Positions 52,143 to 64,000 of a stretch of DNA of 64,000 nt are shown here, piece after piece; the stretch's first letter is position 1; each line of letters starts with the position of its first letter. The position numbers and the translations under genes were made by a program. Source of the DNA: Naegleria gruberi (Eukaryota); assembly GCA_000004985.1 (NCBI GenBank), contig GG738895.1; one strand, 5' to 3'. The notes under the pieces were generated by a model, which did not search any database, was not told the DNA's origin, and was given only the letters and a program-made list of their open reading frames with translations.

Positions 52143-53635
52143 ATGTCTCGACAATTACTTAGCAGTGGTGGTTTGTTGATTGGAGTTGTGTTGTTTGTGG
52201 CTACAATGTTACAATCATTTACTACTGATCAATATCATCATTCAATGGTTGAAGCCACTAAAATATCAACCAATGCATTTCCGAATAATTACAAGGAGAA
52301 AGTTGATCAAATTTGCCAACACATCATCAAAGGAGAAGAAAAGGGAAAGCTCTATGATTTATTGGCCTTCTTAACAGATACTTATGGCAGTAGATTGGTT
52401 GGAACTGAAGGTTTTGATTTGACTTGCAAACATTTTGCCAAACTAATGCAAGCCAATGGTTTTGATAATGTTCATACTGAACCTGTTTATAATATTACAC
52501 ATTGGAGAAGAGGAGAACCTGAATCATTAATCATGCATGAACCTAGATACATTCCACGTATGGAAGTATTGGCATTAGGTACAAGTCCTCCTGGTTCAGT
52601 AAAATCAGAAGTTATTGTGCTGAAGAGTTATGAAGAATTGGATCAATATGATGTTAGAGGAAAGATTGTACTTTTCAATCTTCCTTGGCAAGGTACTTAT
52701 GGTAAATCAGTAATTTTTAGAACTAGAGGACCTGCAGAAGCTGCTAAAAGAGGAGCTGCTGCATGTTTAGTGAGAAGTGTGACCCCATTCTCAATTTATT
52801 CAGCTCACACTGGTGGAACTAATTTCCAAGACGATGAAAAGAGGATTCCAGCTGCCACTATTACTGTAGAAGATGCTGACATGATTGAAAGAATGATTAA
52901 GAGAGGTCAACGAGTTGTCCTGTCATTGAAACTCAATTGTGAAAATCTTCCACCTCTAACCTCTTACAATACACTTGGTGAAATTACTGGAAGTACCTAT
53001 CCAAATGAAGTTATTGTTGTGGGAGGACATATGGACTCTTGGGATTTGAATTCTTGTCCTATGGATGACATTGGAGGAATTTTGACATTCTATGAAGGTA
53101 TGAAAACACTTATCAAACTTGGATTGAGACCAAAGAGAACTATTCGATTGGTTGCCTTCACTGCTGTAAGTAATCTGAAATTTAATTAAGATTAAATAAT
53201 TTAAAATAGGAAGAATTTGGTGGTGGTCGTTTTGGTGGTATGAGTTATGTCAAAGAGCATGAAAAGGAACTCAAAGATCATATTCTTGCAATTGAATCAG
53301 ATGCAGGACCATTTAAACCTCTTGGATTCGAATTTACTGGAGGAGAGGAAGGTAGAAAACTTGTTGAACTAATTGCCAGTACATTATTCACAAATATCAA
53401 CACAACACAAGTTACAGATAATGGTGGTGGAGCTGATGTTGATCCTCTTTATCAAGTAGCTGGTATTCCAGTAATGTCACCTAAAGTAGAAGGAAGTAAA
53501 TACTTTTGGTTCCATCACTCTAAGGCTGACACAATGACAGTTCTTAACACTGATGATTTAGATTTGGCAGCTGCTCAAATGGGTGCTTTCTTATATGTAG
53601 TTGCTGATATGGATGTAAGATTCCCAAGAAATTAA
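52143..53635 (+). CDS. M28-family metallopeptidase (carboxypeptidase Q / plasma glutamate carboxypeptidase-like) with signal peptide and PA domain, 482 aa, 2 exons
   Basis: Exons 52143..53165 and 53210..53635, joined by a 44-nt GTAAGTAA...AAAATAG intron. The N-terminus MSRQLLSSGGLLIGVVLFVA is a signal/anchor, and zinc-ligand motifs GGHMDSWD and EEFGG are present. Confidence 0.8.
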
Positions 53636-54571: not shown

Positions 54572-56929
54572 TTATTCTCTCAATAAGGCTTCGAATTGTG
54601 GAGCAATCTTGTTAATTCTTTGTTCGAATAATTCGTTTGCCTTATCAAGTCTTTGACTTAGCGCTTTGAATTCATTTCCAGTAGTTGTAAGTTTCTTAAG
54701 AACTGCATAACTTTGTTGCCAGAATGGGATTGCAACTTCTCTGAATTCTTTATATGGATTTTGACAACAGAGGAACATGGATTTAAAGTTCTTTGGACTG
54801 AGTTTGTCTTCTGGGGTTGACAAAAGGTAATAAGCCAAAATACCCATAATATTGTTATGGTCAACAGAAAAACCAGTGATATCTCTCATAGTAGACATGA
54901 CACCTGATAAACTTTCAGATGAAATACTACGAGACATGTATACTGCTGTCAATAATGATTCATACAAGTGAGCAATATTTGTTTGCAATAATTTAACAAT
55001 GGAATAGTAAATAGCGAGATCTAACTTGATTAATCCTGTCCAACCACTCTTAGACAATGATGTACGTCTAAATGTTAATGGAACAAGACTCAAAATTCTA
55101 GTGATCAACAATATTTCATCTTCATTTTCAATCTTTTCCTCAACTGCGTATGGTTTTTCGTAAGTCCAAGAAGCAGTAAGAATGTTCATCTTGGCTAATT
55201 CAACGAGCACAAGTGTTTGTTCTATATGAGTCTTGGCATTAGATAAAACCTTTCCTTTAGAGGACAAGATGTCTAATGATCCTTGTTGTGGTTTCTTAAT
55301 ATATCCCAAAGTTTCCAAAACTTTCAAGTGAATAAATGTTTTAACTTCATTTGGTGTGGTAAAGTTTTGCATTTGATTCTTCTTGAGAAGTGTTGGTTTC
55401 AAATTCAATACCAAGCCCAATGACATAGAGTTATTGGTATATGTAATTTTCTGTTGTTGAAGATATTTGGTGATGTTTGCTTCATTAATTTGGAATTGAA
55501 GGCCATCCATAAATACATTTACAGGTTTTCTTTCTATATAAATTGTGTCGTTAGAATTTTCATCTGAAGAGTTATATCTAACAAGCATAACATTTTTGTG
55601 TTTAAAGTAGTCATTCATTTCACTAGTCAAATAGTTCAATGATGATGTATAAATAGGTTTCCAAGTGTTGATAAATTCCTTATATTCCAAAGAATCAAAA
55701 AGAGGATTTGGTTCATAAAATACTCCATTCACTAAATTTCCGACCAATTGTGGTGATAAAATACCATGACAAATTAAAAAGTAAATTTCTTCAGGTAATC
55801 TTTCTCCAACAATTTCTTCAAAGTCTCTAGGAAGAGCATCTCTATTCATTACAACAACTGTATTTCCAATAAAATCCAAAACTGGATGATGCATAATCAA
55901 ATACTTATTTAACAAGAAAGGCACTGTAAGATCCTCACGAGAATTCATTGTAAGAATACTTTTAGCTGAACCAATTCCTTTGATATTATCAATTTCTGTT
56001 TTGAAACGATCCTCTTTCTTTACAGTATTTTGGAATGGTGAAGGAGAAGAAAATCCTTTGAAAAAATAGCTTCCTGAAAGAAGAGCTGCATCCAAAAATT
56101 GATTGCTACTAATTCTTTCTTGTGTAAGAATTGTCTTCTTTTCCACATATTGGAATGTCTTTTCATCAAAATTAAGTGAGAAAATAACTTTAGGAATATC
56201 AAACATTAATAATTCTTCATCTCCCATAACACCATTAACCAATTTAGCATCAGACATGTATGACAGTTGTCCCCAAGCTAAATATGGTGCTCTCAAAAAT
56301 TCGATATCATTTTCATTAAACAATTCAAATAATGCATTAAGAGTGTCAATTGATGCCAAAAATTGATTTCCTTGTGCTGTTTACAAAGTGTGTAATTTTA
56401 AATATTAATTAATATTAATACAAACCTCTAGAGAATAACATAAGGGCTTCTCTCTTTTGATCCTTTTCATAAGAACCCCAAGCAGATTTCAAAGAAACTG
56501 TTCTAGCTTGATATATACTTGTTGAGCGTTCCTTCTTTACGCAATTAATACCATTAAATACAAAAACTGGTGTAATTCCAGCATCCCTAAATATATTTGA
56601 AAACTATTTCTTCATCAAATACTTACTTGAATTGTTTTAAATTAGTTTGAACCAATAAAGCTAATGAAATAGGAGTACCTCCTGTAGCCATTTGGAAAGG
56701 TTCATGTTTTTCATCATATAAAACTTTCAACCAATGAAATCCATCAATTCCTATTTTACATCCACGAAGAGCATCAAGAGATTCCTTTTTAATAAAGTTT
56801 TTTTCAGATAAATAACCTATACAATCATGATGATAATAATAATATTAAAAATTCCGTAATGAAATTAATCCACAATTAATTCACTTGATGATTAATAAAA
56901 AACATACTAGACAATCCTTGAATCGTCAT
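54572..56929 (-). CDS. XPG-N/PIN-like nuclease-fold protein (MKT1 / FEN1-family N-domain), about 750 aa, 4 exons, with an apparent frameshift in exon 2
   Basis: Exon 1 is 56929..56908 (MTIQGLS). Exon 2 is 56815..56627 (YLSEKNFIKKESLDALRG / CKIGIDGFHWLKVLYDEK..TGGTPISLALLVQTNLKQF). Exon 3 is 56586..56426 (DAGITPVFVFNG...). Exon 4 is 56376..54572. The XPG-N signature (M.IQGL, IDG, G.TP, ITPVFVFNG) is clear, but the ESLDALRG and CKIGIDG blocks are in frames offset by 1 nt near 56757. Confidence 0.5.
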
Positions 56930-57370: not shown

Positions 57371-58222
57371 ATGTCATCGAAGCCTTCATCATCATCGTCA
57401 TCACCATCAACAACAAGTGAAGGAGGTATCCGACTCTTCTCTCAAAATGAGAGTAAAGCTTGGGCTGAAAAGTTCTTTTTAATTTACGGACCAATTTGGA
57501 TGTCATACTTTTTCTATTTAATTTACTTTGAAATTTATGATAATGCATCAAGAATGGAATGGACAATGTATGGTGTAATTATGGCTACTCCATGTTTCTT
57601 ATATCCATTATTATTCCCTGGTAAGGCTGATCGTAATCTTCCGATTACTGAAAGATATTGGTTCAAGGCTAATATTTGGGTTTTCATCTTTAATTTTGTT
57701 GGAAATTACTTTTGGACTCATTACTTTTATAATCTTTTAGGTGCAACATATACTATGGATACTCATCGTATTAATGATGTTCCATATTTGATGTTTTTAT
57801 GTACTCAAGCTTATTTCACTTTCTATTTCTCATTGAGTAATGTTCTTTTGAGAATTATTTATACTGCATGGAGAAATCCATCAACTTCTAGAAGCATTTT
57901 CATTTGTCTTTTCATTTTGGCTTTCTCTTACTTTACTGCTTTTATGGAAACTTATACCATTCAATATTTCAAGTATTACACTTTCAAGAATAGAGATATG
58001 ATGTACAAAGTTGGTTCAATTGTCTATGGTATTTACTTTATTGTTGGTTTCCCAATGTATTATAGAATGGATGAAGAGGAAACAAAGAAAAAGTTCTCAA
58101 CTTTCAAATGTTGTGTTGAAAGTTTGGGCGCATGCATGTTAGTTACAATTTTGCTTGATTTTTGGAGATTGTTTGTTGGTGGTATTGTTGAAAATGTTCC
58201 TCAATGCGTTCCATGGATGTAA
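57371..58222 (+). CDS. Polytopic membrane protein (about 7 TM segments), 283 aa, possibly a lipid/sterol-modifying enzyme
   Basis: Ser-rich N-terminus followed by aromatic-rich hydrophobic helices (FFLIYGPIWMSYFFYLIYF.., NIWVFIFNFVGNYFWTHYFYNLLG..). The size and composition resemble cycloeucalenol cycloisomerase-type enzymes, but I cannot verify this from memory. Confidence 0.55.
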   Translation: MSSKPSSSSSSPSTTSEGGIRLFSQNESKAWAEKFFLIYGPIWMSYFFYLIYFEIYDNASRMEWTMYGVIMATPCFLYPLLFPGKADRNLPITERYWFKANIWVFIFNFVGNYFWTHYFYNLLGATYTMDTHRINDVPYLMFLCTQAYFTFYFSLSNVLLRIIYTAWRNPSTSRSIFICLFILAFSYFTAFMETYTIQYFKYYTFKNRDMMYKVGSIVYGIYFIVGFPMYYRMDEEETKKKFSTFKCCVESLGACMLVTILLDFWRLFVGGIVENVPQCVPWM

Positions 58223-59071: not shown

Positions 59072-61155
59072 ATGCCAGTCTTTTCTTTCTTCAAGAAGAA
59101 GGAATCTTCTTCATCAAACACTAAACCAAATTCTGACTTGGCTAAGAAACTTCAACAAAAAGGTTAGTTTTCTATTCGAAACCAACATTAGAATAATTTT
59201 ATTGTTTTAATAGATGCTGGTTCTTGGACAGTCAATGAAGTTGGTATTTGGTTAGATTTAGTTGGTTTAGGAGAATATAAAGTAAGTTGTTGTAGTTTCT
59301 AATAACATTAAACTAAACTATTTAGCCAATATTTATTAACAATTCAATTAGTGGTCAAGAATTACTCGAATTAGGAGAAGAAGGTTTGTTGATATTATTA
59401 TTATTTCCATTAGTTTCTAATAGATATGTTGTGATGATCATTAATTGATGTTTTTATTCGAATCTTTCTAAATTGAACTAAATATCCGTAATATTATCCG
59501 TTACTGTCATCACCCATTGTTAATTCCCATCTCTTTGAATACAATCATTATACATTCATTTATAATACTTTTTACAAATATATATTTAATATTACAATAA
59601 TAACACTATTTATAATAATACTAATACATACAATAATAATACAATAACATGTACATACAATTATATAAAAATAGATATGAATCAACTTCAAGTGACAAAA
59701 CTTGGTCATCGTAAAAAGTTTAAAAAACTTGTTGAAGCACTTAAAAAGAATTCAAATATTACAAATTTCCTTGAAACACTTTCAGAAAATGATTCCGATA
59801 TGATTCCACCAACAAGTAGTAGTAGCAGTTCTAATAATATTAATAATAATAATAATGGTACTGCTAGTAATAGTACAGGTGGAGGTGGAAATTTCACACA
59901 AACAGCTCAACCATCTAATTTCCAAAATAGTAACTTGTCTGAATTGAGTGCAGGTAGTTCAGGAGGTGGTGTTTCAGCTGATTTAGTTTTTAAATGTTAT
60001 CATGCTGAAGATGTTCATTTAATTGCATTGAAAAGAGATAGAGCTACTTTTAGTGAATTGAAATTAAAGATTATTGAAGAATATAATTGTTTAAAACCAA
60101 TTATTAAATACCGTGATACAGAAGGTGATTTTATTAATATTAGAAAGGAAGAAGATTTTAATATTTGTAAACAAAATGTTCCAGTTGACTCTGCTATTAG
60201 ATTATATATTACAACTGAAAATGATGCAGATGACACTTCAAGTCAAACAAGTGGAAGTGAAATGTCATCATCAAATACTGCACAACTTCATGCTCAACGT
60301 CATACAGATCAATTTCCATCAATTTATGCCTCAGATGAAGAACCAGAAATGGATGATGGAGCTGTTTTCTTTGATGACTTTGTTGATTCTGTAATTATTA
60401 TTACAGATGATAAGATTGTTCAATATATGAACAAATCTGCTGAAAAGGCATTTGGTTATACAAAGAAGGAAGTTATTGGAAGAAATGTCAAGATTTTAAT
60501 GAGTAATACTCATAGAATTCAACATGATAATTATGTTGATAATTATTTAAGAACTGGTCAAGCTAAAATTATTGGATCTGGAAGGTAAGTTTTTATACTA
60601 TGAATAATTTCTCTCTAATACACAACTTTACATCTAATTAGAATGGTTGAAGCTCGTGCTAAGGATGGTTTAATTTTCCCAATTTGGTTGAGTGTTGCTG
60701 AATCTGCTTGGTTAGGAAGACATGCTTTCACTGCTACAATTCAAGATTTAAGAAAGGATAAGAGTAAGCATAGTAATTCTTCTGTTACTTCTCTTTTGGA
60801 AAACCTTGTTGATGCTGTCATTATTATTGATCTAAAATGTAATATTTGTTTCTTAAACAAGTCATCTGAAAAGATGTTTGGTTATAATAGAGATGAACTT
60901 ATTGGAAAGAATATTAAACAACTCATGCCTGAGAAGTATTCCATTAATCACGATTCATATGTTTCTCACTATTTGGAAACTGGAGAAAAGAAAGTTATTG
61001 GAAGAGGTAGAAAAGTTACTGCTAAAGATAAGAGTGGATCAATGTTCCCAATTTGGTTGAGCGTCAGTGAAACTAAATTCTCAGGAGAACGATCATTTGT
61101 TGGTACTATTCAGGATCTAAGAAAGGAAAACTCTTTGGACAAGATGTTGCACTAA
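59072..61155 (+). CDS. SAM - PB1 - tandem FixL-like heme-PAS domain protein, 546 aa, 5 exons
   Basis: Exons 59072..59162, 59214..59281, 59326..59383, 59675..60584 and 60642..61155 total 1641 nt in frame. The first four exons rebuild a SAM domain (W.V.EVG.WLDLVGLGEY...ISGQELLELGEEDMNQLQVTKLGHRKK). A PB1-like domain follows (VFKCYHAEDVHLIALKRDRATFSELKLKIIEEY..). Then two PAS domains: ..IGRNVKILMSNTHRIQHDNYVDNYLRTGQAKIIGSGRMVEARAKDGLIFPIWLSVAE.. and ..IGKNIKQLMPEKYSINHDSYVSHYLETGEKKVIGRGRKVTAKDKSGSMFPIWLSVSETKFSGERSFVGTIQDLRKE. These align residue-for-residue with the rhizobial FixL heme domain as I recall it (NILMPEP.R..HD.Y...Y..T...IIGIGR.V.G.R.DG..FP..L....M.SGGE..F.G..RDLTE), including the proximal His and distal Arg. 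Confidence 0.8.
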
Positions 61156-61277
61156 ACTTGTTAACACCAAACTAATGTACATTAATAAATATCTAGCTTA
61201 TTTCTATGTTGTAATCTGATTTGATGTAATGAATTAAGGAATAGTTACTTTTAATTTACTAGGTTAATTTATTCAGA

Positions 61278-64000
61278 TTATTTTTTCTTCTTCAACATGT
61301 ATGAAATAATTTCATTCAATGTATCAAAATTATGTTGTTGAGAAATGGAATGGATAAGGTGAATTGTGTCTGCTACCTTTTCACTCTTATTTTCTACTTG
61401 GGCAGAAATCCATTTACCTGAACAGTGGCAACGTTCAAGTACGTTATTGGCATTAATTTGGGAGCATCTAGAACATTGTAAATCTTGCAATTGATATCCA
61501 ACCATCTTATTTTGAACATAGTCAATTAATCTTCCCTCAATTAGAGATTTGTCAAAGTCATTCGAGCAGTGTTTACATTTAAAGATGTTTTCTGTTGTTG
61601 GTTTACCAAGCTCAAGATCACAACAAGAACTACAGAATGAACAAATCATATCAGGAACCTTGAAAATATTCTGGGATCTCTTGAACATTGATTCGGAAGA
61701 GAATTCCTTTACACCCAATAATTTCAGTAAAGATCTCTTGAGCACATTAACTTCATCTCTAATAAAAAGATCAATTGAAAGCATATGGCAAATTGCATTA
61801 ACAAACTCTAATCTAATATCTTTTTCTGATTCTAATTGTAGGGAGAGCTCTTTGAGTTGATTACTCATCACTTCCATCAAACCTTCTGAGAATTTAGTTG
61901 TCAAATATTCTTGGGCATGTTCTTCTTGGATCTTTTGAACTTCTTCTGCCTTCATTGTTGAAATTTTTTCATCCAATGATCTTCTATACTTGAGACATTC
62001 ATACATGTAAGTAGAAAGATAGAATACTAAATGTACTCTAACTGATTCTGGAAGTTCACTCAATAAATCAATGTGTGGATCAGAAGAAAGTCCAGTCTCT
62101 GTTTCTTGGTCTTCCTTAAAGCCCAAGAAGTTATCTTGATTAAACCACAACAAATTACTCCAAGTGTTTTTAACTTCAATATCAACCCAAGTGAATAACT
62201 TTTGTTGTTGAATGCTTGACTTAAGGTAGTCAGTGTAAACCTTAGCTTCATCTGTAGTATTCTTGCCAGTATCTACAATAATCTTAGTGAAGTTGGCATA
62301 GATGATTCTACATCCACACTTCTTAAAGTGAGCACAGAGTTGGAGGAAGACTTTCTTTTGAAGTCTGTAGATGAATGCTAAAATTTCAGGATGGAAAAGC
62401 TTAGCATGAGTATTACAACACCATCTATAAAGATTTGATAACAACAAATCTGGAACATCAGGACAGGTATTGTCATCATTGTGAACATCTGCGAACATTT
62501 TGGAAACAACTTGCTTGAATATTTTGAAAATTTCAGTAACAGTGGAGAATTTAGATGAATTACTAATCTTGTCATCAATTGTTTCTTCAATAAAACTACT
62601 TTGCAAAATGGCATTAATGTCCAAGTGAGAAATATCAAACTCAACACAAACTGAGTGATAGCAAGCAGAGTGATTAATAAAAGTACCACTTCTGGAATAC
62701 AATTGGTCATCACTCAACAATGCTTGTTGTTGTAGTGCATCATTTTCGCAACCTCCTAAATCTGGTTTGTTGGCCTTGCTTAACCACAATACATAGTCAT
62801 TTTGTAAACTTCTTCCAAACATCATGTCAATTAAATGCATAACAAAGTCATTTGATTCAATATTACCAATAGGAATACCACAATAGTTACTGTAGTTAGT
62901 CATATCCTTATACCATTTTTCAATAGCACAATATCTGATAAACATTTGCTTGATACAATTATTAGTCCAGTATGCTGAGAGAGCATGTTGATATTTGTTG
63001 TCTTCTTCACTGAAAGGAATGGCTACAATAGGTATTTCTTCTAACATTGGAGCGATTTCAGAGGCTGAATGAGTTTGGTATGAGAATGGAGACTGAACTA
63101 AAAGCAGAGATGATGCCTTTCTTTCCTTCGCCAAAATGTTGTTAATTTCTTTAAGTACATCAACTCTATTCTTGAAAACATCCAATTCAAATTCTTCAAT
63201 TTCTGTAATATTCAAGTTAGATTGCTCAATAATTTGATCTAATACTTCATCGAATAATCTATCAGGATGCAAACCTGTAGTTTGGAGATCAATTGAATGA
63301 ATCAAATAAATATATGCTTTCTTGTTTGCAAAAGAGAACAAACCAATAACACCTCTGACATCACAACAACTTTCAAAAAGATATAATTTTTGCAAGTTTG
63401 TTACATCTTTGAGATAAGATACACCAGGATTCTTCTTAGAATGACTTCCGTCAACTTGAACAAGATCTGAAACAGTAAGCGTATTGGCAGAGTCAATCTT
63501 TTCTCTTGACTTTGGATGTACTTGACAAAGTGAACCAATTGAAAGAACAGCTCTAAGAACAGGATCAATTTGTGTCTCATAAACACCTTGAATATGAGGA
63601 TTAGAGAATTCAGAGTAAATAGTTTGCAAGTTCTTTTGGTAGTACGACTCTAGCAACTCTTTTCTATAGAGGAATGTATCTCTCTTATTAGCTACTGAAG
63701 TTTCAACAAGCTGACTTGAGAGAATTGGTAATTTCTTATGAGGCTCCTCTGATTCACCTTGCTTTTGATAAAAATTGAGATAGACAACTCTTGGTACTTC
63801 TATCTTGAATGTTCTCATTTTACCTCCAACACTAATAAAAAGCTTGAGAAGACCTGGTGTTTCGGATTCTCTAACTTCAATAACATGCCACACGAGGTCT
63901 TTAAGTTGGTTAGAATAAAATTGAACATATGAAGCCATAGTACCATCATTGACAAGAGTGTTACCATCTGAGGATTTAGATTTCTTGGTCTTGTTCTTCT
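61278..64000 (-). CDS. POLE: DNA polymerase epsilon catalytic subunit A, C-terminal non-catalytic half (partial; 5' end beyond the window)
   Basis: The C-terminal Cys motifs (CSFCSSCCDLE..CKHCSNDF / CSRCSQINANNVLERCHCSG) are the Pol2 CysA/CysB zinc modules. The ORF is open to the window edge with no stop. Confidence 0.8.
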   Translation of the reverse strand, partial: KNKTKKSKSSDGNTLVNDGTMASYVQFYSNQLKDLVWHVIEVRESETPGLLKLFISVGGKMRTFKIEVPRVVYLNFYQKQGESEEPHKKLPILSSQLVETSVANKRDTFLYRKELLESYYQKNLQTIYSEFSNPHIQGVYETQIDPVLRAVLSIGSLCQVHPKSREKIDSANTLTVSDLVQVDGSHSKKNPGVSYLKDVTNLQKLYLFESCCDVRGVIGLFSFANKKAYIYLIHSIDLQTTGLHPDRLFDEVLDQIIEQSNLNITEIEEFELDVFKNRVDVLKEINNILAKERKASSLLLVQSPFSYQTHSASEIAPMLEEIPIVAIPFSEEDNKYQHALSAYWTNNCIKQMFIRYCAIEKWYKDMTNYSNYCGIPIGNIESNDFVMHLIDMMFGRSLQNDYVLWLSKANKPDLGGCENDALQQQALLSDDQLYSRSGTFINHSACYHSVCVEFDISHLDINAILQSSFIEETIDDKISNSSKFSTVTEIFKIFKQVVSKMFADVHNDDNTCPDVPDLLLSNLYRWCCNTHAKLFHPEILAFIYRLQKKVFLQLCAHFKKCGCRIIYANFTKIIVDTGKNTTDEAKVYTDYLKSSIQQQKLFTWVDIEVKNTWSNLLWFNQDNFLGFKEDQETETGLSSDPHIDLLSELPESVRVHLVFYLSTYMYECLKYRRSLDEKISTMKAEEVQKIQEEHAQEYLTTKFSEGLMEVMSNQLKELSLQLESEKDIRLEFVNAICHMLSIDLFIRDEVNVLKRSLLKLLGVKEFSSESMFKRSQNIFKVPDMICSFCSSCCDLELGKPTTENIFKCKHCSNDFDKSLIEGRLIDYVQNKMVGYQLQDLQCSRCSQINANNVLERCHCSGKWISAQVENKSEKVADTIHLIHSISQQHNFDTLNEIISYMLKKKK

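What the first reader, a model, noticed from the sequence alone, without database searches (positions are those of the whole stretch)
59072..61155. Eukaryotic protein joining SAM and PB1 modules to two tandem FixL-type heme-PAS (O2-sensor) domains
Both PAS domains share about 40-45% identity with the bacterial FixL heme-binding domain as I recall that sequence, not merely generic PAS similarity. The proximal heme His is retained (HDNY / HDSY) along with the distal Arg of the IIGxGR strand and the FG-loop ILMPEP-like segment. In bacteria this domain gates a histidine kinase. Here there is no kinase or other output domain, only protein-interaction modules, and the gene carries five spliceosomal introns, so it is not bacterial contamination. 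This looks like a gas-sensing (O2/NO/CO) signalling scaffold of an undescribed type. Its origin could be ancient horizontal transfer that was then domesticated.
Basis: partly seen in the sequence, partly recalled or inferred. Interest (0 to 1): 0.8.

Follow-up and report, generated by a model that had tools for sequence, protein, structure and literature searches.

The report
Kinase-less FixL-type haem sensor in Naegleria
This amoeba gene joins two bacterial-type haem oxygen-sensor domains to two protein-assembly modules instead of an enzyme. It belongs to an uncharacterised family found in many amoebae and is a candidate for how these microbes sense oxygen.

Summary
Window 59072-61155 (+) encodes a 546-aa protein from 5 exons and 4 GT-AG introns (not five). 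It has a SAM domain, a PB1 domain and two tandem PAS domains, with no other domain. For each PAS domain the best PDB and NCBIfam matches are the rhizobial FixL haem domains (E 1e-21 to 1e-23; 39-41% identity, ungapped). DosP comes next, and non-haem PAS families score far lower.

The proximal His, the distal Arg and the distal hydrophobic residues are retained. AlphaFold models superpose on BjFixLH at 1.0-1.3 A.

The gene is eukaryotic and old. Three introns and the upstream neighbours are shared with N. fowleri and Willaertia.

It is not unique. I found 37 clusters with SAM-PB1-(haem-PAS)2-4, in Heterolobosea and Amoebozoa; 88 of 91 domains keep both His and Arg. All named entries are 'hypothetical', and I found no paper on the family.

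Most likely it is a haem-based gas sensor, probably for O2, whose output is SAM/PB1-mediated assembly rather than catalysis. Haem binding and function are inferred, not shown. The bacterial donor cannot be resolved.

Verdict: a new variant of a known kind, of moderately high interest.

The parts
59072..61155 (+). Whole coding region, start codon to stop codon, of the SAM-PB1-PAS-PAS gene (546 aa, 5 exons)
   Evidence: Spliced ORF. Full-length orthologues P0001 (N. fowleri, 76-81% identity) and P0002 (W. magna).
59072..59162 (+). Exon 1 (aa 1-30 plus 1 nt)
   Evidence: The N-terminus MPVFSFFKKKE matches the orthologues MPFGFFNKKK and MPLFGFFKKKE.
59163..59213 (+). Intron 1: 51 nt, GT..AG, phase 1. 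Position and phase are conserved in N. fowleri and W. magna.
59214..59281 (+). Exon 2 (SAM, part)
59282..59325 (+). Intron 2: 44 nt, GT..AG, phase 0. Conserved in N. fowleri and W. magna.
59326..59383 (+). Exon 3 (SAM, part)
59384..59674 (+). Intron 3: 291 nt, GT..AG, phase 1, 20% GC. Conserved in N. fowleri (160 nt) and W. magna (44 nt).
59675..60584 (+). Exon 4: end of SAM, linker 1, PB1, linker 2 and the first two thirds of PAS1
60585..60641 (+). Intron 4: 57 nt, GTAAG..AG, phase 2. It splits the codon of the distal Arg376 of PAS1. It is absent from N. fowleri and W. magna, and has an in-frame TAA at the donor if retained.
   Evidence: The same intron is present in an independent metagenome contig, L001, at 99.6% identity.
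60642..61155 (+). Exon 5: last third of PAS1, PAS2, short C-terminal helix and stop codon
   Evidence: It is identical to P0065.
59162..59754 (+). SAM domain coding region (aa 31-99, interrupted by introns 1-3)
   Evidence: Pfam SAM_1 61.9 bits and SAM_2 54 bits. PDB SAM hits: liprin, caskin, Shank. A helical bundle in the AF2 model of the orthologue.
59974..60207 (+). PB1 domain (aa 173-250), carrying both the beta1 Lys179 (59992-59994) and the acidic OPCA-type motif YRDTEGDFINIRKEEDF
   Evidence: Pfam PB1 24.7/28.7 bits against a cut-off of 23.6. The family profile hits the PB1 domains of Cdc24, MEKK2/3, NBR1, PKCzeta/iota, TFG, Bem1, p40phox and p62. beta-beta-alpha-beta-beta-alpha-beta topology in AF2.
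60364..60750 (+). Haem-PAS domain 1 (aa 303-412, interrupted by intron 4). Proximal His356 codon is at 60523-60525. The distal Arg376 codon is split, 60583-60584 plus 60642.
60790..61119 (+). Haem-PAS domain 2 (aa 426-535). Proximal His479 codon is at 60949-60951; distal Arg499 codon is at 61009-61011.
   Evidence: The AF2 model of this exact window sequence superposes on BjFixLH at 1.2-1.3 A over 103 columns.

Best explanation
The gene encodes a soluble, kinase-less haem-based gas sensor. Each of the two tandem PAS domains is expected to hold one haem b, ligated by His356 or His479 on the F-alpha helix. The distal pocket is FixL-like: Arg376/Arg499 on G-beta, plus Ile/Val, Leu and Val. In FixL this pocket favours O2 discrimination.

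Ligand binding would change the PAS conformation or PAS-PAS dimerisation, as it does in FixL. Here, however, there is no attached enzyme to gate. Instead the change would alter how the N-terminal SAM domain and the type I/II PB1 domain assemble the protein with itself or with partner proteins. Both of these are head-to-tail oligomerisation modules, joined to the PAS pair by disordered linkers. The result would be an oxygen-tuned signalling scaffold.

Shown here: the domain identities, the residue conservation, the predicted fold, the eukaryotic gene structure and the family distribution. Inferred: haem binding, O2 as the ligand, and coupling to SAM/PB1 assembly.

The PAS module most likely derives from bacterial tandem haem-PAS histidine kinases. 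It has been in the lineage since before Naegleria and Willaertia diverged.
For: - Sequence: each PAS domain hits RmFixL and BjFixL haem domains best (E 1e-20 to 1e-23), then DosP/EcDOS.
- Profile: the best NCBIfam match for both is the haem-PAS segment (positions 124-239) of sens_FixL_Rhizob, at 105 and 109 bits. The generic PAS S-box model scores 66 and 84 bits, and NifL/YtvA about 22-25 bits.
- Residues: mapping to BjFixL gives H200->H/H, R220->R/R, Y203->Y/Y, Y207->Y/Y, I215->I/V, L236->L/L, I238->V/V, H214->K/K.
- Conservation: His and Arg are invariant in 8 eukaryotic orthologues and paralogues. Both are kept in 88 of 91 domains from 37 family clusters. The SAM, PB1 and PAS domains are 78-92% identical to the three closest relatives (N. 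fowleri, W. magna and an unnamed JGI sequence, P0003), while the two long linkers (100-172 and 251-303) are 39-77% identical.
- Structure: AF2 gives four separately folded domains with disordered linkers. A PAS domain of the orthologue model matches BjFixLH 2vv6_A at rmsd 1.0 A, TM 0.95. The window's own PAS2 matches at rmsd 1.2-1.3 A, TM 0.93, and the top 34 hits are all haem-PAS structures. His lies in the F-alpha helix and Arg in the G-beta strand of the models.
- PB1: the beta1 Lys and the OPCA acidic motif are both conserved.
- No other domain is present.
- Literature: Xing et al. 2023 identify the F-alpha His as the primary determinant of haem binding in the FixL/DosP cluster (PMC10468136).
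Against: - No biochemical data exist for any family member.
- BjFixL Arg206, which interacts with a haem propionate and takes part in the FG-loop switch, is Asn in PAS1 and His in PAS2. His214 is Lys in both. So the signalling switch may differ from FixL, although most of the nearest bacterial domains share these residues.
- There is no long J-alpha or coiled-coil linker after PAS2 that could transmit a signal. The PAS pair is joined to PB1 only by a roughly 50-residue disordered linker. Intramolecular coupling to SAM/PB1 is therefore speculative.
- The SAM and PB1 oligomerisation states were not tested.
- According to a pangenome paper, Naegleria must obtain haem from its prey (PMC9928731). 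This leaves room for haem-availability sensing as an alternative.
Confidence: 0.5

Rival explanations
1. Same haem-PAS scaffold, but the physiological signal is NO, CO or the haem iron redox state rather than O2, as proposed for DosP/EcDOS and for the NO responses of FixL.
For: DosP/EcDOS are the second-best sequence and structural matches. Residues 206 and 214 differ from rhizobial FixL. FixL itself binds NO and CO; structures 1DP8 and 1XJ4 are among the hits.
Against: The EcDOS-type distal Met, two residues before the distal Arg, is absent. That position is Ser in PAS1 and Arg in PAS2. The FixL-type distal Arg and hydrophobic triad are retained in nearly every family domain.
Confidence: 0.2
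2. A sensor or buffer of haem availability. The PAS domains would bind haem reversibly and report cellular haem supply in an amoeba that acquires haem from prey.
For: The pangenome paper states that Naegleria must feed on microbes to obtain haem (PMC9928731). Having two to four haem sites per chain would suit a buffering or cooperative read-out.
Against: Apart from the one-component regulator 10jx, whose mode of haem use I did not check, the closest solved relatives hold haem as a fixed prosthetic group. The distal Arg needed for O2 stabilisation, which is irrelevant for simple haem sensing, is kept in 88 of 91 domains. The family also occurs in Amoebozoa whose haem status is unknown.
Confidence: 0.1
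3. The PAS domains no longer bind haem. The protein is a plain SAM/PB1/PAS interaction scaffold, or binds another small ligand, as happened in PASK where FixL-related PAS domains lost the His.
For: Xing et al. report that 40% of sequences in the FixL/DosP cluster lack the His, and that PASK PAS domains derive from that cluster (PMC10468136; PMC11230368). A few family domains have lost the His, for example the middle PAS of P0221.
Against: His and Arg are invariant in both domains of all close orthologues and kept in 88 of 91 family domains. This conservation is hard to explain without the cofactor.
Confidence: 0.12
4. Bacterial contamination, an assembly chimera or a pseudogene.
For: The PAS region is most similar to bacterial kinases, at 50-55% identity.
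Against: There are four GT-AG introns, three with conserved position and phase in two other genera. CDS GC is 0.31 and GC3 0.17, like the host. Upstream synteny is conserved, and the flanking genes are DNA polymerase epsilon and MKT1. The reading frame is intact. An independent metagenome contig is 99.6% identical. Amoebozoan homologues are present in transcriptomes.
Confidence: 0.01

Closest known systems
Rhizobial FixL haem-PAS domain (BjFixLH 1DRM/1DP6/2VV6; RmFixLH 1D06)
   Same: Same PAS subfamily. Identity is 39-41%, ungapped. The proximal His, distal Arg, distal hydrophobic residues and Tyr203/Tyr207 equivalents are retained. The predicted fold lies within 1.0-1.3 A.
   Different: There is no HisKA/HATPase transmitter and no FixJ partner. 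Both tandem PAS domains are of the haem type, whereas in BjFixL only PAS-B is. Arg206 is Asn or His, and His214 is Lys. The host is eukaryotic, and the domains are fused to SAM and PB1.
Bacterial tandem haem-PAS hybrid histidine kinases (e.g. P0007, P0011, P0013; Burkholderiales and metagenomic)
   Same: These are the closest PAS sequences, at about 40% identity across both domains and up to 50-55% per domain. They have the same tandem haem-PAS arrangement with His and Arg in each copy, and Asn at position 206.
   Different: They carry HisKA-HATPase-REC output domains. The window protein has none.
E. coli DosP / EcDOS haem-PAS
   Same: Second-best sequence and structural relatives, with the proximal His on F-alpha.
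   Different: DosP has a distal Met ligand and GGDEF/EAL output. Both are absent here.
Chlamydomonas FXL proteins (FixL-like haem-PAS proteins reported to bind haem and O2). This is recalled from my own knowledge (Murthy et al., FEBS Lett 2012). I could not retrieve the paper here.
   Same: Eukaryotic proteins with FixL-type haem-PAS domains and no classical kinase transmitter.
   Different: A different lineage (green alga). As far as I recall there is no SAM-PB1 module. I made no sequence comparison here.
PB1 and SAM scaffold proteins (p62/SQSTM1, TFG, aPKC-Par6, MEKK2/3-MEK5, Cdc24-Bem1; SAM polymers such as Shank and caskin)
   Same: The PB1 profile matches these domains and carries both the basic Lys and the OPCA motif, as in the self-polymerising type I/II PB1 domains. 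The SAM domain matches Shank, caskin and liprin SAMs.
   Different: None of these carries a gas-sensing cofactor domain. Polymerisation of the amoeba protein is untested.
PASK, and NPAS2/CLOCK (eukaryotic PAS proteins linked to haem or to the FixL cluster)
   Same: PASK PAS domains are assigned to, or placed next to, the FixL/DosP cluster (PMC10468136; PMC11230368).
   Different: Human and most other terrestrial PASK have lost the haem His (some fish retain it), and PASK signals through a Ser/Thr kinase. NPAS2/CLOCK bind haem at non-homologous sites and are transcription factors.

Membership tests
FixL/DosP-type haem-binding PAS domain ('cluster 3' of Xing et al. 2023) | PAS fold most similar to the FixL/DosP haem domains rather than to flavin or other PAS classes | tested here: met
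   The top PDB sequence hits for both domains are FixL, then DosP. The NCBIfam FixL haem segment scores 105/109 bits, against 22-25 bits for NifL/YtvA. Foldseek gives BjFixLH at rmsd 1.0-1.3 A and TM 0.93-0.95.
FixL/DosP-type haem-binding PAS domain ('cluster 3' of Xing et al. 2023) | Proximal His on the F-alpha helix, aligned with BjFixL His200 | tested here: met
   His356 and His479 align to His200. They are invariant in 8 relatives and lie in the predicted F-alpha helix.
FixL/DosP-type haem-binding PAS domain ('cluster 3' of Xing et al. 2023) | FixL-type distal pocket: Arg220 on G-beta and the hydrophobic residues Ile215/Leu236/Ile238 | tested here: met
   R376/R499, I/V, L/L and V/V. His and Arg are kept together in 88 of 91 family domains.
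FixL/DosP-type haem-binding PAS domain ('cluster 3' of Xing et al. 2023) | Haem propionate contacts Arg206 and His214 of BjFixL | tested here: not met
   Position 206 is Asn (PAS1) or His (PAS2), and position 214 is Lys in both. The same residues (Asn 79/152, Lys 114/152) dominate in the nearest haem-PAS domains. These are therefore features of rhizobial FixL rather than of the class.
FixL/DosP-type haem-binding PAS domain ('cluster 3' of Xing et al. 2023) | Actual binding of haem b and reversible O2/CO/NO binding | not testable with these tools
   Requires recombinant protein and UV-visible spectroscopy.
FixL sensor histidine kinase (NCBIfam NF041777 equivalog) | HisKA plus HATPase_c transmitter C-terminal to the haem-PAS domain, and a full-length score above the cut-off of 850 bits | tested here: not met
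   There is no HisKA or HATPase hit. Only positions 124-239 of the 485-position profile match, at 105-109 bits. The protein is not a FixL orthologue.
PB1 domain (Pfam PF00564) | Score above the Pfam gathering threshold, and a beta-grasp beta-beta-alpha-beta-beta-alpha-beta topology | tested here: met
   24.7 bits (whole protein) and 28.7 bits (isolated segment) against 23.6. The family profile hits Cdc24, MEKK2/3, NBR1, aPKC, TFG, Bem1, p40phox and p62 PB1 domains at E 3e-9 to 6e-3. AF2 strands and helices are in the PB1 order, with pLDDT 74-84.
PB1 domain (Pfam PF00564) | Interaction surfaces: the basic Lys on beta1 (type II) and/or the acidic OPCA motif (type I) | tested here: met
   Lys179 is invariant in the 8 close relatives and present in at least 90% of 23 family PB1 segments (22 of 23 by eye). 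The YxDxxGDxIxI...D/E motif is conserved, with D220, G223 and D224 invariant in close relatives. Both surfaces are present, so this is type I/II. Binding itself was not tested.
SAM domain (Pfam PF00536/PF07647) | Score above threshold, and a helical bundle | tested here: met
   SAM_1 61.9 bits (cut-off 23) and SAM_2 54 bits. PDB hits are liprin-beta, caskin, Shank and DGK-delta SAM domains. Helices 38-98 appear in the AF2 model of the orthologue. Polymerisation capacity was not tested.
Genuine nuclear gene of a heterolobosean amoeba (not bacterial DNA) | Spliceosomal introns, host-like composition, eukaryotic neighbours and conserved synteny | tested here: met
   Four GT-AG introns, three shared in position and phase with N. 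fowleri and W. magna. GC3 is 0.17. The neighbours are MKT1-like and DNA polymerase epsilon. The upstream gene order is conserved.

The most novel reading that the evidence does not exclude
SAM-PB1-(haem-PAS)n proteins are the principal direct O2 sensors of free-living amoebae, including the pathogen N. fowleri. They would represent a new signalling logic for haem sensors: ligand-controlled polymerisation or condensation of a scaffold through SAM and PB1, instead of control of an attached enzyme. They would govern the aerobic/anaerobic metabolic switch in lineages that lack HIF.
Probability: 0.2. Interest if true: 0.85.

Novelty: new variant of a known kind. Interest (0 to 1): 0.6.

Why it matters
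How facultatively anaerobic protists sense oxygen is largely open. Amoebae lack the animal HIF system (Acanthamoeba genome paper, PMC4053784).

This family offers a concrete, cloneable candidate. It carries a well-understood bacterial O2-sensing haem domain, under strong conservation of the haem ligand and the O2-stabilising Arg. But it is wired to eukaryotic assembly modules rather than to a kinase.

The family is present in the brain-eating amoeba N. fowleri (XP_044565863) and in many other amoebae. If it is confirmed, three things follow:
- The repertoire of haem-based sensors would extend to an output by regulated protein assembly.
- It would be a clean example of a bacterial sensor module being domesticated into eukaryotic scaffolding architecture.
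- It would provide a handle on oxygen responses in Naegleria.

The key tests, haem spectra and O2-dependent oligomerisation, are simple.

Tried and rejected
I therefore modelled the N. fowleri orthologue P0001 (76-81% identical) and the window's own exon-5 product P0065.
2. Neighbour-joining trees of the 110-column haem-PAS domain, with bootstrap, were built for 150 and for 435 domains. Only shallow clades are supported: heterolobosean PAS1 at 93% and PAS2 at 73-93%. Grouping of PAS1 with PAS2 gets only 45%. The backbone has about 0% support. So no bacterial donor, no single-origin claim and no claim about the timing of duplication can be made.
3. The third homologous-protein search, with a SAM+PB1 query from which I had removed the linker, returned one irrelevant SAM fragment. 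It gave no information on other C-terminal partners of this SAM-PB1 module.
4. The afdb50 fold library was unavailable, so I could not list UniProt-annotated structural relatives or look for an N. gruberi entry.
5. The exact species of the window was not identified. The upstream ORF is not on record. The only exact match is a 1.5-kb metagenome contig. The window protein is 76-82% identical to its N. fowleri and N. lovaniensis orthologues, so the window comes from another Naegleria-like species.
6. Ten literature searches found no paper on this family and did not retrieve the Chlamydomonas FXL paper I recall.
7. Contamination, pseudogene and generic non-haem PAS readings were considered and rejected; see the rival explanations.
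8. An EcDOS-like six-coordinate Met ligand was considered and rejected, because the equivalent position is Ser or Arg.
Full report
OBSERVATION AND GENE MODEL
Joining 59072-59162, 59214-59281, 59326-59383, 59675-60584 and 60642-61155 removes four GT...AG introns of 51, 44, 291 and 57 nt (20-23% GC). The result is an uninterrupted 1641-nt CDS encoding 546 aa.

There are therefore five exons and four introns, not five introns. The model does not rest on consensus sites alone. The N-terminus and every exon-junction peptide are reproduced in the annotated orthologues of Naegleria fowleri (P0001, XP_044565863; 76% identity by BLASTP, 81% in the multiple alignment), N. lovaniensis (P0119) and Willaertia magna (P0002).

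EUKARYOTIC STATUS AND AGE
I mapped the orthologous proteins back onto their genomic loci. Introns 1-3 have the same position and phase in the window, in N. fowleri and in W. magna. All three lie in the SAM-coding part.

Intron 4 is found only in the window species. It is 57 nt long and splits the codon of the distal Arg of PAS1. It is also present in an independent 1.5-kb metagenome contig that is 99.6% identical to the window.

Other evidence points the same way:
- The CDS has GC 0.31 and GC3 0.17, against 0.33 for the window as a whole.
- The upstream neighbours are an MKT1-like gene on the minus strand and a 283-aa ORF. Both are the neighbours in N. fowleri, and the 283-aa ORF is also the neighbour in Willaertia.
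- Downstream, convergent, is the C-terminal part of DNA polymerase epsilon.

Contamination is excluded. The gene predates the Naegleria/Willaertia split.

DOMAINS
Pfam gives SAM_1 at residues 34-96 (61.9 bits), PB1 at 178-237 (24.7 bits; 28.7 bits for the isolated segment; cut-off 23.6) and two PAS/PAS_9 domains. It finds nothing else: no kinase, cyclase, GGDEF or DNA-binding domain.

A profile built from 23 family PB1 segments hits the PB1 domains of Cdc24, MEKK2/3, NBR1, PKC zeta/iota, TFG, Bem1, p40phox and p62 (E 3e-9 to 6e-3). The family conserves both the beta1 Lys (Lys179) and the acidic OPCA-type motif (Y-R/K-D-x-E/D-G-D-x-I-x-I). It is therefore a type I/II PB1, the kind able to form head-to-tail arrays.

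AlphaFold2 on the N. fowleri orthologue gives four separately folded modules: SAM about 30-100, PB1 150-228, PAS1 288-390 and PAS2 410-513. These are joined by linkers with pLDDT below 50.

ARE THE PAS DOMAINS FIXL-TYPE?
Yes, by four independent measures.
1. Sequence. phmmer against all PDB sequences puts the RmFixL and BjFixL haem domains first for both PAS1 (E 1.8e-21 and 1.6e-20) and PAS2 (1.7e-23 and 1.8e-21). DosP/EcDOS follow at about 1e-11 to 1e-13.
2. Identity. It is 39-41%, without gaps, over 103-115 residues. PAS1 and PAS2 are 51% identical to each other.
3. Profile. In NCBIfam the best match for each domain is the haem-PAS segment of the FixL equivalog (105 and 109 bits). This is ahead of the generic S-box model (66 and 84 bits) and DosP (48 and 60 bits), and far ahead of NifL or YtvA at about 22-25 bits.
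4. Structure. A PAS domain of the orthologue model matches BjFixLH 2vv6_A at rmsd 1.0 A over 105 columns (TM 0.95). A model of the window's own exon-5 product matches BjFixLH at 1.2-1.3 A (TM 0.93). Its first 34 hits are all haem-PAS structures: FixL, EcDOS/DosP and a haem-binding one-component regulator.

HAEM-POCKET RESIDUES
I numbered the alignment on BjFixL; the offset was checked on His200, Arg206, His214 and Arg220. The mapping, with PAS1 then PAS2 after each arrow, is as follows:
- Proximal His200 -> His356/His479
- Distal Arg220 -> Arg376/Arg499
- Tyr203 and Tyr207 -> Tyr/Tyr
- Ile215 -> Ile/Val
- Leu236 -> Leu/Leu
- Ile238 -> Val/Val
- His214 -> Lys/Lys
- Arg206 -> Asn/His

The substitutions at 206 and 214 are not peculiar to the amoeba. 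Among 152 related domains, Asn (79) and Lys (114) are the majority residues. The EcDOS-type distal Met position is Ser or Arg here. A five-coordinate, FixL-like ferrous haem is therefore the better expectation.

It is retained in PAS2 (QLMPEK) and only partly in PAS1 (ILMSNT).

THE FAMILY
The protein is not an orphan. Word-indexed and exhaustive HMM searches found the same architecture in the following taxa:
- N. fowleri and N. lovaniensis; the latter also has a second paralogue, P0211
- Willaertia magna, with two paralogues
- Pharyngomonas kirbyi, a deep-branching heterolobosean
- The amoebozoans Stenamoeba stenopodia, Dermamoeba algensis and Paramoeba atlantica, all from transcriptomes
- Many unnamed metagenomic and transcriptomic sequences

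Using my own HMMs for the three modules, 37 clusters show SAM-PB1-(haem-PAS)2-4. The heterolobosean members closest to the window protein have two PAS domains, and most of the others have three. Of 91 near-full-length PAS domains in these proteins, 88 keep both His200 and Arg220.

Compared with its three closest relatives (N. fowleri, W. magna and an unnamed JGI sequence, P0003), the window protein's SAM, PB1, PAS1 and PAS2 are 78-92% identical. The two long linkers are 39-77% identical. That is the pattern expected if all four modules are functional.

Every named entry is 'hypothetical', 'uncharacterized' or a bare domain label.

ORIGIN
The closest non-family sequences are bacterial hybrid histidine kinases. 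They carry two or three tandem haem-PAS domains followed by HisKA-HATPase-REC. Their single domains are 50-55% identical to the window's. This is as close as the amoebozoan family members (47-51%) and closer than rhizobial FixL (37-42%).

The tandem haem-PAS arrangement therefore already exists in bacteria. A transfer of a PAS-PAS cassette that lost its kinase and was joined to a eukaryotic SAM-PB1 module is the simplest history.

It is not demonstrated, however. Bootstrapped NJ trees support only shallow clades (heterolobosean PAS1 at 93%, PAS2 at 73-93%) and leave the backbone unresolved. The shared SAM-PB1 module argues that the heterolobosean and amoebozoan proteins are one family. Whether that reflects ancient inheritance or eukaryote-to-eukaryote transfer is open.

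MECHANISM (INFERRED)
In FixL, O2 binding to the haem draws Arg220 into the pocket and shifts the FG loop. This changes the PAS dimer and switches off the attached kinase. That is established knowledge of the family, and the corresponding structures are among the hits.

In the window protein the sensor half is conserved but the enzyme is missing. In its place are two modules whose known role is head-to-tail protein assembly. The best-supported reading is an O2-responsive scaffold. NO, CO or redox responsiveness is less likely. The liganded and unliganded states of the two haem-PAS domains would differ in PAS-PAS or PAS-partner association. That in turn would change the valency or accessibility of SAM- and PB1-mediated assemblies with downstream proteins.

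The steps have different standing:
- Shown: domain identity, conservation of the pocket residues, the predicted fold and the absence of other domains.
- Inferred: haem binding (I estimate about 0.8), O2 as the ligand, and any coupling to assembly.

One weak point is the lack of a helical transmitter after PAS2. Another is the flexible linker of about 50 residues between PB1 and PAS1.

COMPARISON WITH KNOWN SYSTEMS AND NOVELTY
The PAS domains pass the tests I could run for the FixL/DosP haem-PAS class. The protein fails the tests for FixL itself, since it has no transmitter.

Xing et al. 2023 define that class and name the F-alpha His as the main determinant of haem binding. They do not describe this architecture. 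The Naegleria pangenome paper mentions only PAS-histidine-kinase sensors, and hemerythrins as possible O2 sensors. No searched paper mentions the locus tags.

From memory, Chlamydomonas FXL proteins are eukaryotic FixL homologues shown to bind haem and O2. I could not retrieve that paper here. Eukaryotic FixL-type haem-PAS is therefore not new in itself. What appears undescribed is its fusion to SAM and PB1 with no enzymatic output, and the breadth of that family among amoebae.

I rate it a new variant of a known kind, with interest 0.6.

LIMITS
- Nothing here demonstrates haem binding or function.
- The full-length structure is of the orthologue, not of the window protein. Only PAS2, plus the last third of PAS1, was modelled from the window sequence itself.
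- The species of the window was not identified.
- The phylogenies are NJ trees on short domains.

Noticed in passing
Proteins P0121-P0163, P0200; taxa: Giant proteins of 1,650-5,490 aa score higher than the family itself, because they contain many FixL-type PAS-PAS units (typically 7-10 matched stretches, 22 in P0200). Named ones are from Rhizaria: Papus ankaliazontas (3,378 aa) and Paulinella micropora (4,799 aa). Pfam on two of them (P0121, P0125) finds essentially only PAS domains, 12-13 copies. What such arrays of haem-type PAS domains do is unknown.
   Followed up: partly
P0186 (Chromosphaera perkinsii, Ichthyosporea): A 1,211-aa holozoan protein has a long charged, coiled-coil-like N-terminal half and five FixL-type PAS domains. 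Most carry an 'NHHTY' motif, that is, an extra His next to the proximal His. FixL-type PAS domains thus also occur in a close relative of animals.
   Followed up: no
P0009 (W. magna), P0211 (N. lovaniensis), P0247; Naegleria and Willaertia have a second, more divergent SAM-PB1-PAS-PAS paralogue, about 36% identical to the window protein. It has long Asn/Ser/Thr-rich inserts, and 'HHN(E/Q)Y' replaces 'HD(S/N)Y' in its PAS2. That paralogue is not in this window.
   Followed up: partly
window 60585-60641: Intron 4 is lineage-specific, being absent from N. fowleri and W. magna. It is exactly 57 nt, a multiple of three, and sits inside the codon of the O2-stabilising Arg376. Its donor creates an in-frame TAA (AG|GTAAG). 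Retention would therefore yield a SAM-PB1 protein truncated in the middle of PAS1.
   Followed up: partly
window 59384-59674: Intron 3 is 291 nt, five to six times longer than the other three. It is 20% GC and rich in AATAATA-like repeats. The orthologous intron is 160 nt in N. fowleri and 44 nt in W. magna.
   Followed up: no
window 57371-58222 (+): A 283-aa ORF that looks hydrophobic by eye has no Pfam hit. It is nevertheless conserved as the immediate upstream neighbour of the haem-PAS gene in N. fowleri (279 aa) and W. magna (343 aa; 66% identity by tblastx). This gene pair has been kept together across genera.
   Followed up: partly
window 61156-61277 and 61278-63938 (-): The convergent downstream ORF is the C-terminal part of DNA polymerase epsilon (DUF1744 plus zinc fingers). 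Only 122 bp separate the two stop codons, so the 3' UTRs must be very short or must overlap. This downstream neighbour is not conserved in N. fowleri, where an ankyrin-repeat gene follows.
   Followed up: no
L001 (ENA ERZ929261, run ERR1078381, project PRJEB11402): A metagenome contig is 99.6% identical to window 59692-61230. The prokaryote-style gene calls on it split the gene at intron 4 into two 'proteins' (298 and 170 aa). This shows how the eukaryotic gene is hidden in metagenome protein catalogues as bacterial-looking PAS proteins.
   Followed up: yes
P0221 (Pharyngomonas kirbyi); also P0226, P0220, P0252, P0254: In P0221 the middle PAS domain has lost the proximal His while the flanking PAS domains keep it. 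By eye, the middle domains of P0226, P0220, P0252 and P0254 also lack the H-D-x-Y motif. This suggests subfunctionalisation into haem and non-haem PAS within one chain.
   Followed up: no
window 54572-56359 (-) and 52143-53189 (+): Ordinary eukaryotic neighbours: an MKT1-like protein (XPG_I, MKT1_N, MKT1_C) and a PA/peptidase M28-like ORF. Nothing here suggests a functional link to the haem-PAS gene.
   Followed up: no
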